Below are positions 20,288 through 21,229 of a stretch of 24,192 nucleotides of DNA, one piece after another (position 1 is the stretch's first letter; each line of letters begins with the position of its first letter). The stretch is from IMG/VR virus record IMGVR_UViG_3300005573_000271, positions 1 to 24,192 of that record. The stretch is one strand, 5' to 3'. The notes beneath the pieces were generated by a model. It searched no databases, was not told where the DNA came from, and saw only the letters and a program-made list of their open reading frames with translations. The translations under genes and the position numbers were made by a program. The stretch is from a virus (lineage: Duplodnaviria > Caudoviricetes).

Positions 20288-20375
20288 TTGCCAGCCTCGC
20301 CTCGCCGTACTGCGCCAGGCCGCGCCTCGCCATGCCTTGCCGCGCCTGGCCTTGCTCCGCCCAACCAAGCCTGCC
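20288..20375 (-). repeat. GGY-NN pentamer array 2 (18 units), putative guide ncRNA
   Basis: GGCA GGC-TT GGT-TG GGC-GG AGC-AA GGC-CA GGC-GC GGC-AA GGC-AT GGC-GA GGC-GC GGC-CT GGC-GC AGT-AC GGC-GA GGC-GA GGCT GGC-AA; intergenic, starts 13 nt after the RAMP gene stop. Confidence 0.92.
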
Positions 20376-20388
20376 ACGTCCCCAACTG

Positions 20389-21012
20389 CTATGCCAGCCG
20401 GAACAGGCCCCAGCCGAGACCGGCAGATTGGCGACTATCTGGCCTGCCCTCGCCGATCCCAACCTGAGTACCCACACGCACCAGCAGGTTGGTCACGTCC
20501 TGCAGGCTGAACTGGTCCTCATCGTAGGTCACCCGCAACGTGCAGGACCAGTCCCGCCACATCGGCCTCACCCGCAGGTCGGCAACCCCGGTAGCATTCC
20601 GCACGGCCATCGTCACCGATTCCGGCTGGCCCTCGATCCGCACAAGAGGGATGCCATCTACTGCATCAAAGCCGTCAGCTTCGACGAAGACACTCAACTT
20701 CGCCAGCGTCATCTTGAACCCAACCAGCCTACATGCCGAGATGATAGCCTGCCGGAAGGCGCTTGCCGGGATACCATGCCAGCCCTCTGTGCTCACGTGC
20801 AGCGCCTGCCGGAAGTCCTCGTCGAAGTCTCGCGCCTCTCGCACCTTCCCCTTTTTGGCCTTTTGCCCGGCGGCCATCTTCTCGACCATCATGTTCATAG
20901 CCTTGGCCGAAAAGCGCGCCTGCACGTATGGAGCCGTGCCGACGATCCTGAATTCTGCCGTCGCCATCCTGGGAGCGGAAATCTGTACCGCAGTCTCTTT
21001 TCGAGTAGCCAT
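20389..21012 (-). CDS. Stand-alone Cas7/RAMP-like protein (207 aa); putative effector of the GGY-NN arrays (Vipr-like)
   Basis: GAGGAGG RBS, ATG at 21012. First strand FRIVGTAPY, GIPASAFRQAIISAC (compare RAMP IPGSSLKGAxR), RPMWRDWSCTLRVTY, and C-terminal Gly-rich loop GIGEGRPDSRQSAGLGWGLFRL. Confidence 0.82.
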   Translation of the reverse strand: MATRKETAVQISAPRMATAEFRIVGTAPYVQARFSAKAMNMMVEKMAAGQKAKKGKVREARDFDEDFRQALHVSTEGWHGIPASAFRQAIISACRLVGFKMTLAKLSVFVEADGFDAVDGIPLVRIEGQPESVTMAVRNATGVADLRVRPMWRDWSCTLRVTYDEDQFSLQDVTNLLVRVGTQVGIGEGRPDSRQSAGLGWGLFRLA

Positions 21013-21037
21013 TGCTGCCTCCTCTTTTGGATTTGTA

Positions 21038-21229
21038 TCGCCTTGCCTTGCCCCGCCCTGCCGGGCCTCGCCCCACCAAGCCACGCCTGCCTTGCCATGC
21101 TCCGCCTGGCCCCGCCACGCCGAGCCGCGCCGCGCCTTGCCTTGCCGAGCCAGGCCCTGCCCGGCCACGCCCAGCCCCGCCTGCCATGCCCTGCCGGGCC
21201 CAGCCTCGCCGGGCCTCGCCCGGCCAGCC
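21038..21229 (-). repeat. GGY-NN pentamer array 1 (39 units, 192 nt), putative guide ncRNA(s)
   Basis: 37 GGC, 1 GGT and 1 AGC constant triplets, each followed by a variable dinucleotide; three 4-nt units (GGCT, GGCA, GGCA) split it into blocks of 8, 18 and 10 NN. Confidence 0.95.

What the first reader, a model, noticed from the sequence alone, without database searches (positions are those of the whole stretch)
20288..21229. Stand-alone Cas7/RAMP-like gene sandwiched between GGY-NN arrays: candidate phage RNA-guided system without CRISPR repeats
Seen: a 207-aa gene with RAMP hallmarks (FRIVGTAPY, GIPASAFRQAI, terminal GIGEGRP...GLGWGLF glycine loop). Both flanking intergenic spaces are almost entirely filled by same-strand 5-nt-period arrays with a constant triplet and a free dinucleotide (57 units in total). 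No cas1/2/3/5/6/8/10 and no repeat-spacer CRISPR array is visible in the window. Known: Cas7 RAMPs polymerise along RNA with a fixed nucleotide step per protomer and present short base segments for target pairing. Inference: each protomer grips one GGY while the NN pairs are displayed as a discontinuous guide, giving a minimal programmable nucleic-acid-binding complex, plausibly used against competing phages or host genes. From memory, this architecture has recently been described as VIPR (Vipr protein plus GGY/NN vrRNA); I cannot verify that here, so this may be a new member rather than a new class.
Basis: partly seen in the sequence, partly recalled or inferred. Interest (0 to 1): 0.97.

Follow-up and report, generated by a model that had tools for sequence, protein, structure and literature searches.

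The report
Phage VIPR cassette with swapped genes
This phage carries a VIPR cassette (a small Cas7-like protein, a partner gene and two arrays of 5-base repeats), a CRISPR-related system first described in 2026 that likely uses short guide RNAs to silence rival viruses' DNA; it is another member of a known kind, unusual only in that its two genes are in reversed order.

Summary
A 207-aa gene (20389-21012, minus strand) is flanked by same-strand GGY-NN arrays with 57 slots, far above shuffles. The protein folds as a RAMP, and its only significant PDB sequence hit is SUSP1 Vipr. Arrays lie beside 63 of 73 homologous loci, against 1 of 785 control windows.

It is a VIPR system (bioRxiv 2026) of the published staggered-array form: 4-nt junctions shift the register and delimit four likely guides of 8, 18, 10 and 15 units.

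The gene is not stand-alone. A predicted winged-helix partner (vap, 21233-21727) accompanies it. Here vap comes first, whereas all 110 other loci with both genes have vipr first. A relative with an 88%-identical vap has the array but no vipr within 10 kb either side.

No target was found for any guide, and RNA production and the skip rule were not shown here. The scan had already noted similar VIPR loci in 7 other genomes. Verdict: new member of a known kind.

The parts
21233..21727 (-). vap accessory gene, 164 aa; predicted N-terminal winged-helix-like domain plus a long C-terminal helix; placed before vipr, unlike relatives
   Evidence: Homologue in 68 of 73 vipr loci, always downstream there; PHROG 15946 E=5e-28; AF2 pLDDT 91.2; weak fold matches to forkhead and other winged-helix domains (best Foldseek E=0.15; best Z 6.2); no similarity to SUSP1 Vap1
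21038..21229 (-). Upstream staggered vrRNA array: junction 21229-21226, guide 1 (8 units, 21225-21186), junction, guide 2 (18 units, 21181-21092), junction, guide 3 (10 units, 21087-21038)
   Evidence: bridged together with both flanking genes by one contig of run X2 (20936-21489) whose single difference, 21128, is an N position
20389..21012 (-). vipr gene, 207 aa, RAMP (RRM, thumb, G-loop) fold
   Evidence: PDB sequence hit SUSP1 Vipr 36pp_D E=2.3e-4, profile 1.5e-5, hhalign 93% probability over 53 columns; AF2 pLDDT 89.4; Foldseek and VIA top hits Csm/Cmr RAMPs, Z 11.1; PHROG 4652
20288..20375 (-). Downstream staggered vrRNA array: junction 20375-20372, guide 4 (15 units, 20371-20297, two degenerate triplets), junction, one terminal unit abutting the next start codon
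   Evidence: bridged by run X1 contig 20189-20454
20063..20287 (-). 74-aa two-CxxC zinc-ribbon ORF that follows the cassette here and in two relatives; probably a neighbour rather than a VIPR part
   Evidence: Translation; only sub-threshold zinc-ribbon hits; 64% in L001 and 58% in L228; no hit in the other 72 vipr loci
19960..20085 (-). Sigma70-like promoter followed by a ~90-nt structured leader and a terminator-like hairpin in front of the terminase genes; marks the downstream edge of the cassette, not a guide
   Evidence: Promoter 10 of 12 (2 sites found against 1.0 +/- 1.0 in shuffles); fold z=-3.6; similar promoter and hairpin in L001 and L228

Best explanation
This is a phage-borne VIPR cassette with staggered arrays, in which the Vipr RAMP protein likely coats short RNAs cut from the arrays and likely uses their NN pairs to bind and silence DNA of rival mobile elements. 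Shown here: the RAMP fold model, sequence kinship with SUSP1 Vipr, the array anatomy and the family-wide vipr-vap-array linkage. Inferred from the published SUSP1 and P. fulva work: one co-directional transcript covers vap, the arrays and vipr. It is divided at the 4-nt junctions into about four guides of 8, 18, 10 and 15 units. One protomer binds each GGY, and the NN pairs pair with double-stranded DNA skipping every third base, usually a codon wobble position. The filament represses transcription without cutting, and the winged-helix Vap assists. The host is likely a hot-spring Chloroflexota bacterium, and the targets are likely its other phages or satellites; none was identified.
For: SUSP1 Vipr is the only significant PDB sequence hit. 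SUSP1 R138, D177 and R179, which contact GGY, align with R149 (122 of 122 homologues), E188 (116 of 122) and R190 (122 of 122). All listed Foldseek hits and the top 37 VIA rows are CRISPR RAMP complexes or subunits. Same-strand arrays lie beside 63 of 73 homologous loci against 1 of 785 distant control windows, and a vap homologue beside 68 of 73. Register-shifting junctions are GGCA in 93 of 97 cases in relatives, matching the staggered arrays of Fig. S18 in the discovery preprint (legend read). Inner NN frequencies of 146 guides from relatives correlate with codon positions 1-2 on the sense strand (r=0.64, p=0.007); the other five readings give |r| of at most 0.27 (one of six tests, loci not independent). 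The window is a siphovirus-type late-gene region.
Against: No target was found for any of the four guides. Exact-seed scans of viral contigs gave only hits that did not extend beyond chance, and best scores in 3.0 Mb of held loci equalled shuffled guides. A clade-wide test of 164 guides gave 1 perfect hit under the 1-nt skip and none under skips 0 and 2, which is not decisive. SUSP1 W178, which stacks on the second G, is glycine in all 122 homologues; the G-loop has an 8-residue insertion; and H17 aligns weakly to an alanine. The arrays have no 3' tail between guides, although SUSP1 filaments appear to assemble from the tailed end. Guide 2 (18 units) is longer than the published 9-16 range and than all 150 junction-bounded segments in relatives. 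The partner shows no similarity to SUSP1 Vap1.
Confidence: 0.85

Rival explanations
1. It is a VIPR-family ribonucleoprotein, but this clade reads targets by a different rule (another skip length, an RNA target, or long unprocessed multi-register guides), in line with its glycine in place of W178 and its longer G-loop.
For: G189 and the loop insertion are invariant in 122 homologues; no skip-1 target found; no structured tail between guides.
Against: Skips 0 and 2 found nothing either. The NN bias fits sense codon positions 1-2 only. R149, E188 and R190 are kept. The preprint reports GGY/NN or a related consensus for all seven types.
Confidence: 0.07
2. The cassette is a recently shuffled, partly decayed VIPR locus whose long guides are fusions or stale, so it no longer silences anything relevant.
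For: Reversed gene order seen in no other locus (0 of 110); unusually long guides; two junctions end in T where 93 of 97 in relatives end in A and none in T; no targets found.
Against: Both genes are intact with near-consensus residues, and vipr has a strong ribosome-binding site. 48 of 51 triplets are canonical. T-type junctions also occur in L228. The relevant target space (hot-spring Chloroflexota elements) was barely searched: 241 kb.
Confidence: 0.06
3. The repeats are low-complexity coding sequence (an open 294-codon frame runs through the upstream array) and the gene is a solo Cas7 acting, for example, as an anti-CRISPR decoy.
For: The frame 21273-20389 is open, and a database entry calls a 280-aa product (P0003).
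Against: A 5-base period with -1 shifts is not codon-compatible. Nearly all homologues are 200-240 aa and align from the ATG at 21012. The downstream array lies after the stop. The arrays travel with homologues on the same strand. The closest sequence relative in the PDB is Vipr, not Cas7.
Confidence: 0.02

Closest known systems
VIPR systems with staggered vrRNA arrays (bioRxiv 10.64898/2026.04.26.720920, Fig. S18; type number not readable from the text)
   Same: Phage-borne vipr RAMP gene plus one predicted DNA-binding vap gene; GGY/NN pentamer arrays; successive guides offset by one base; no cas genes or CRISPR array
   Different: vap precedes vipr and arrays lie on both sides of vipr; one guide of 18 units exceeds the published 9-16; likely thermophilic Chloroflexota host; targets unknown
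Type II VIPR of Escherichia phage SUSP1 (Vipr YP_009199429.1, PDB 36PP)
   Same: Homologous thumb and G-loop half (32% identity over 53 columns); R138, D177 and R179 equivalents kept
   Different: W178 replaced by G; 8-residue G-loop insertion; no 3' pseudoknot tail between guides; vap not detectably related to Vap1
Solo vrRNA loci of vipr-null phages (bioRxiv 10.64898/2026.10.15.759431)
   Same: Relative L228 has a staggered array without vipr in 20.5 kb
   Different: L228 keeps vap, whereas the published phages lost both vipr and vap1; the window itself has vipr
Class 1 CRISPR RAMPs (Csm3/Cas7 group, Cmr, Csf2)
   Same: RAMP fold, Z up to 11.1
   Different: At most 19% identity in the listed rows; no repeat-spacer array and no other cas gene in the window; guide is non-contiguous

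Membership tests
VIPR | Small RAMP-fold protein with RRM core, thumb and G-loop, homologous to Vipr | tested here: met
VIPR | Adjacent non-coding tandem GGY/NN pentamers (at least 4 units; typically 9-16) | tested here: met
   Four runs of 8, 18, 10 and 15 units; arrays beside 63 of 73 homologous loci
VIPR | Minimal locus with a vap gene; no cas operon or CRISPR array | tested here: met
   Partner in 68 of 73 loci; no Cas hit among 35 ORFs and no CRISPR-like repeats; contig is a fragment
VIPR | vap is a predicted DNA-binding protein (winged-helix or HTH-like) or an enzyme | tested here: inconclusive
   Confident model, but only weak winged-helix-type matches (E=0.15; Z 6.2)
VIPR | GGY-recognising residues of SUSP1 Vipr (H17, R138, D177, W178, R179) | tested here: inconclusive
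   R, D/E and R kept; W replaced by invariant G; H17 column weakly aligned to A
VIPR | Natural targets under the 1-nt skip rule | tested here: inconclusive
   No target above chance in the space searched; indirect NN-codon correlation in relatives
VIPR | vrRNAs are expressed, co-purify with Vipr and direct repression | not testable with these tools
   Needs experiment
VIPR, staggered arrays | Successive guides offset by one base within the array | tested here: met
   Five 4-nt junctions in the window; 97 in relatives
VIPR type II (SUSP1 / P. fulva) | Conserved structured 3' tail after each guide | tested here: not met
   Guides abut each other through 4-nt junctions; only 25 nt follow guide 3 before the vipr start and 9 nt follow guide 4 before the next start
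VIPR types I-VII | Placement in the published Vipr phylogeny | not testable with these tools
   Figures and data S1-S4 not held
Class 1 CRISPR-Cas | Repeat-spacer array and further cas genes | tested here: not met
   Within the 24-kb contig only

The most novel reading that the evidence does not exclude
The locus is a snapshot of a vipr-less 'vap plus guides' cassette being re-armed. A vipr gene with its own array was inserted at a 5-nt microhomology in front of the zinc-ribbon gene of an L228-like module, producing a gene order seen nowhere else and unusually long guides. It would imply that phages can carry vap and guides while borrowing or swapping Vipr. In addition, this tail-less clade (invariant glycine for W178, longer G-loop, invariant D116 and D145) may have Vipr cut its own precursor at the 4-nt junctions, a processing step that I did not find explained in the VIPR texts I read.
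Probability: 0.2. Interest if true: 0.55.

Novelty: new member of a known kind. Interest (0 to 1): 0.3.

Why it matters
VIPR is a recently described, programmable RNA-guided DNA-binding system, so good new members have some value. This one probably comes from a hot-spring phage, so it may offer a heat-stable Vipr of 207 aa. It belongs to the tail-less staggered clade, which the texts I read do not characterise mechanistically. With its relatives L001 and L228 it shows three arrangements at the same genomic slot, a small window on how these cassettes gain, lose and reorder parts. It does not open a new class.

Tried and rejected
Target searches, all negative.
- Six exact gapped seeds in viral contigs. 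Guide 2 units 5-13 gave 2 hits and guide 4 units 4-12 gave 3, with best full scores 25/36 and 22/30.
- Guide 3 gave 7 hits and guide 1 gave 6. One guide 3 hit reached 19/20, but off the wobble frame of the long ORF it overlaps and within chance.
- Two near-identical guide 3 hits (L082, L086; 16/20) fall in frame in an N-terminal motif that I recall as RusA-like. This is a lead only.
- Guide 2 units 11-17: 120 of about 150 hits seen, best 25/36. Guide 4 units 9-15: only 120 of about 660 hits seen, best 23/30.
- Scripted scans with skips 0-2 of the window and held loci showed no self-target and no match to vipr genes, and scored like shuffles. 241 kb of terminase- or vap-related phages gave nothing.

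Other checks.
- No RNA holder was listed among sequencing runs; this is no evidence either way.
- The 4-unit GGY run at 20021-20038 was rejected as a guide: the homologous leader in L001 lacks the period.
- A contig joint skipping 19976-21781 in run X2 might be an empty site, but it rests on 30 letters at 85% likeness. Partial array joints look like other VIPR arrays.
- Pfam, NCBIfam and PADLOC have no family for Vipr and nothing meaningful for Vap; Rfam has nothing for the arrays.
- The deep HMMER search of protein representatives never ran, so distant Vipr relatives were not sampled for a tree.
- Three literature searches listed no paper beyond the four preprints; a word search of earlier scan notes on gene order found none.

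Full report
Observation. The minus strand carries a 207-aa ORF from ATG 21012 to a stop ending at 20389, preceded by a strong ribosome-binding site. The intergenic spaces on both sides hold same-strand pentamer arrays: 51 GGY-NN units in four in-phase runs (8, 18 and 10 upstream; 15 downstream), five 4-nt junctions that shift the register by one base, and one terminal unit, 57 slots in all. The best in-phase count per ten units is 10 and 9, against maxima of 7 and 6 in 1000 local shuffles each. Nothing else in the window exceeds 5. The assembly is supported by a 554-nt contig of run X2 spanning vap, the upstream array and the start of vipr with one difference, at an N position, and by a contig of run X1 across the downstream array. 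These runs may include the source sample, so this is not fully independent.

Context. The window is a fragment of a siphovirus-type phage. Terminase, portal, capsid and tail genes lie downstream and a VRR-NUC gene upstream, all on the minus strand. Terminase relatives at 71-80% identity carry Anaerolineae or Chloroflexi labels, and the two runs that hold most of the stretch are hot-spring metagenomes. A thermophilic Chloroflexota host is therefore likely but inferred. No CRISPR-like repeat family or Cas hit was found in the contig.

Protein. The family is large: 7236 of 7556 candidates passed E 0.001. An AlphaFold model from 122 sequences has pLDDT 89.4. All listed Foldseek rows are CRISPR effector complexes, best E 3.6e-5, and the unbiased search ranks Cmr and Csm RAMPs first (Z 11.1, rmsd 3.6, 147 aligned). 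By sequence, the only significant PDB match is SUSP1 Vipr (E 2.3e-4; profile 1.5e-5; hhalign 93%, 53 columns). The GGY-contacting R138, D177 and R179 of SUSP1 map to R149, E188 and R190, found in 122, 116 and 122 of 122 homologues. W178 is glycine in all 122 and the G-loop is 8 residues longer.

Family-wide linkage. Of 73 loci with a homologue (72 viral contigs plus Cy-LDV1), 63 have at least 7 of 8 in-phase GGY on the same strand within 700 nt upstream or 900 nt downstream, against 1 of 785 distant windows. Only 3 of the 64 with enough flank have arrays on both sides within those distances. A homologue of the 164-aa upstream gene occurs in 68 of 73, so the gene is not stand-alone. This partner has a confident model with weak winged-helix-type matches and no similarity to SUSP1 Vap1. 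Junctions in relatives are GGCA in 93 of 97 cases, and 143 of 150 junction-bounded segments have 7-13 units. The window's 18- and 15-unit guides are therefore long and may be fusions. Many of these loci are near-duplicates, so the counts overstate independence.

What is peculiar here. vap precedes vipr. In the 68 viral loci and 42 metagenome loci with both genes, vipr comes first; the only vap-first locus is the window's own contig. Thirteen further loci lacked a hit to one gene, mostly through short contigs. The nearest vipr fetched (L001, 89%) has vipr-array-vap-zinc ribbon with a vap only 51% identical. The nearest vaps (L227 91%, L228 88%) have no vipr upstream over 5 and 10 kb. L228 reads vap-array-zinc ribbon with no vipr in 20.5 kb by tblastn or profile search; 16 kb of its contig could not be searched. 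The last 12 nt of the L228 array match the end of the window's upstream array, and the window's extra vipr-plus-array block is bounded by a 5-nt direct repeat. Either the window gained vipr or L228 lost it. The mosaic identities lean to gain, but the direction is not shown.

Mechanism. By analogy with the published systems, Vipr protomers bind one GGY each and display the NN pairs, which pair with double-stranded DNA skipping every third base and repress transcription. Shown here are only the parts. Indirect support for the skip rule in this clade is that inner NN frequencies (950 pairs, 146 guides) correlate with sense codon positions 1-2 of 228 ORFs (r 0.64, p 0.007) and not with the other five readings. 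Against it, or at least unsupportive: no target was found. Six seed scans of viral contigs, two of them truncated at 120 rows, gave only chance-level extensions. Scripted scans of 3.0 Mb of held loci scored like shuffles, and 164 guides of relatives gave one perfect skip-1 hit and none for skips 0 and 2. The likely target space was barely sampled. How tail-less staggered guides are cut, and where filaments start on them, is open.

Comparison with what is known. VIPR was described in bioRxiv 10.64898/2026.04.26.720920. I read the whole text with methods and legends and searched its supplementary PDF for four terms. Figures and data S1-S4 were not visible, so the type number and whether a vap-first order is already drawn there cannot be told. 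It reports 667 systems in seven types, including staggered arrays. Of the structure preprint 10.64898/2026.04.26.720927 I read parts 1-2 of 6. Of 10.64898/2026.10.15.759431 I read part 1 of 8 and selected passages; it describes phages that lost vipr and vap1 but keep guides. Of 10.64898/2026.10.21.760802 I read passages. Earlier notes of this scan list look-alike VIPR loci in 7 other genomes, four called staggered; these are unchecked AI notes and not evidence. The RusA and Com labels used in passing are recalled and come from no call.

Verdict. It is a new member of a known kind, with a modestly interesting reversed gene order and an orphan-like sister locus. Interest 0.3.

Noticed in passing
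L228:10001-10977: Phage relative with vap (88%), a staggered array of four guides (12, 13, 12 and 10 units) and the zinc-ribbon gene, but no vipr within 10 kb either side; a vap-retaining orphan guide cassette, unlike the published vipr-vap1 double losses.
   Followed up: partly
window 19960-20085 (-): Promoter, short structured leader and terminator-like hairpin in front of the terminase genes, similar in L001 and L228; resembles a late-operon leader that would need antitermination (inference).
   Followed up: partly
window 20063-20287 (-): 74-aa two-CxxC zinc-ribbon gene directly before that promoter, also in L001 and L228; recalls Mu Com-type regulators (from memory, not tested).
   Followed up: no
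window 20389-21273 (-): The reading frame stays open through the upstream array, and a database entry (P0003, 280 aa) is longer than the true protein, probably because the gene caller read through the array.
   Followed up: partly
phage collection hits H2-H31 and H32-H51: Cultured Mycobacterium smegmatis and Gordonia phages and cyanophage Cy-LDV1 carry neighbouring vipr and vap homologues annotated as hypothetical; arrays confirmed only for Cy-LDV1 (L073).
   Followed up: partly
L082 and L086, 1500 region: Guide 3 units 1-8 match exactly, wobble-aligned, an N-terminal motif of a small ORF that looks RusA-like (recalled); one independent hit among 7, so within chance.
   Followed up: partly
window 19975/21782: One contig of run X2 joins across the whole cassette, possibly an empty site in a related phage; weak (30 letters on the short side).
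   Followed up: no
L005, L022, L023, L064 arrays: Besides 4-nt junctions, some relatives use 9-nt junctions that also shift the register by one base.
   Followed up: no
window 3587-3754: Two 84-nt tandem copies (75% alike) inside a structural gene.
   Followed up: no
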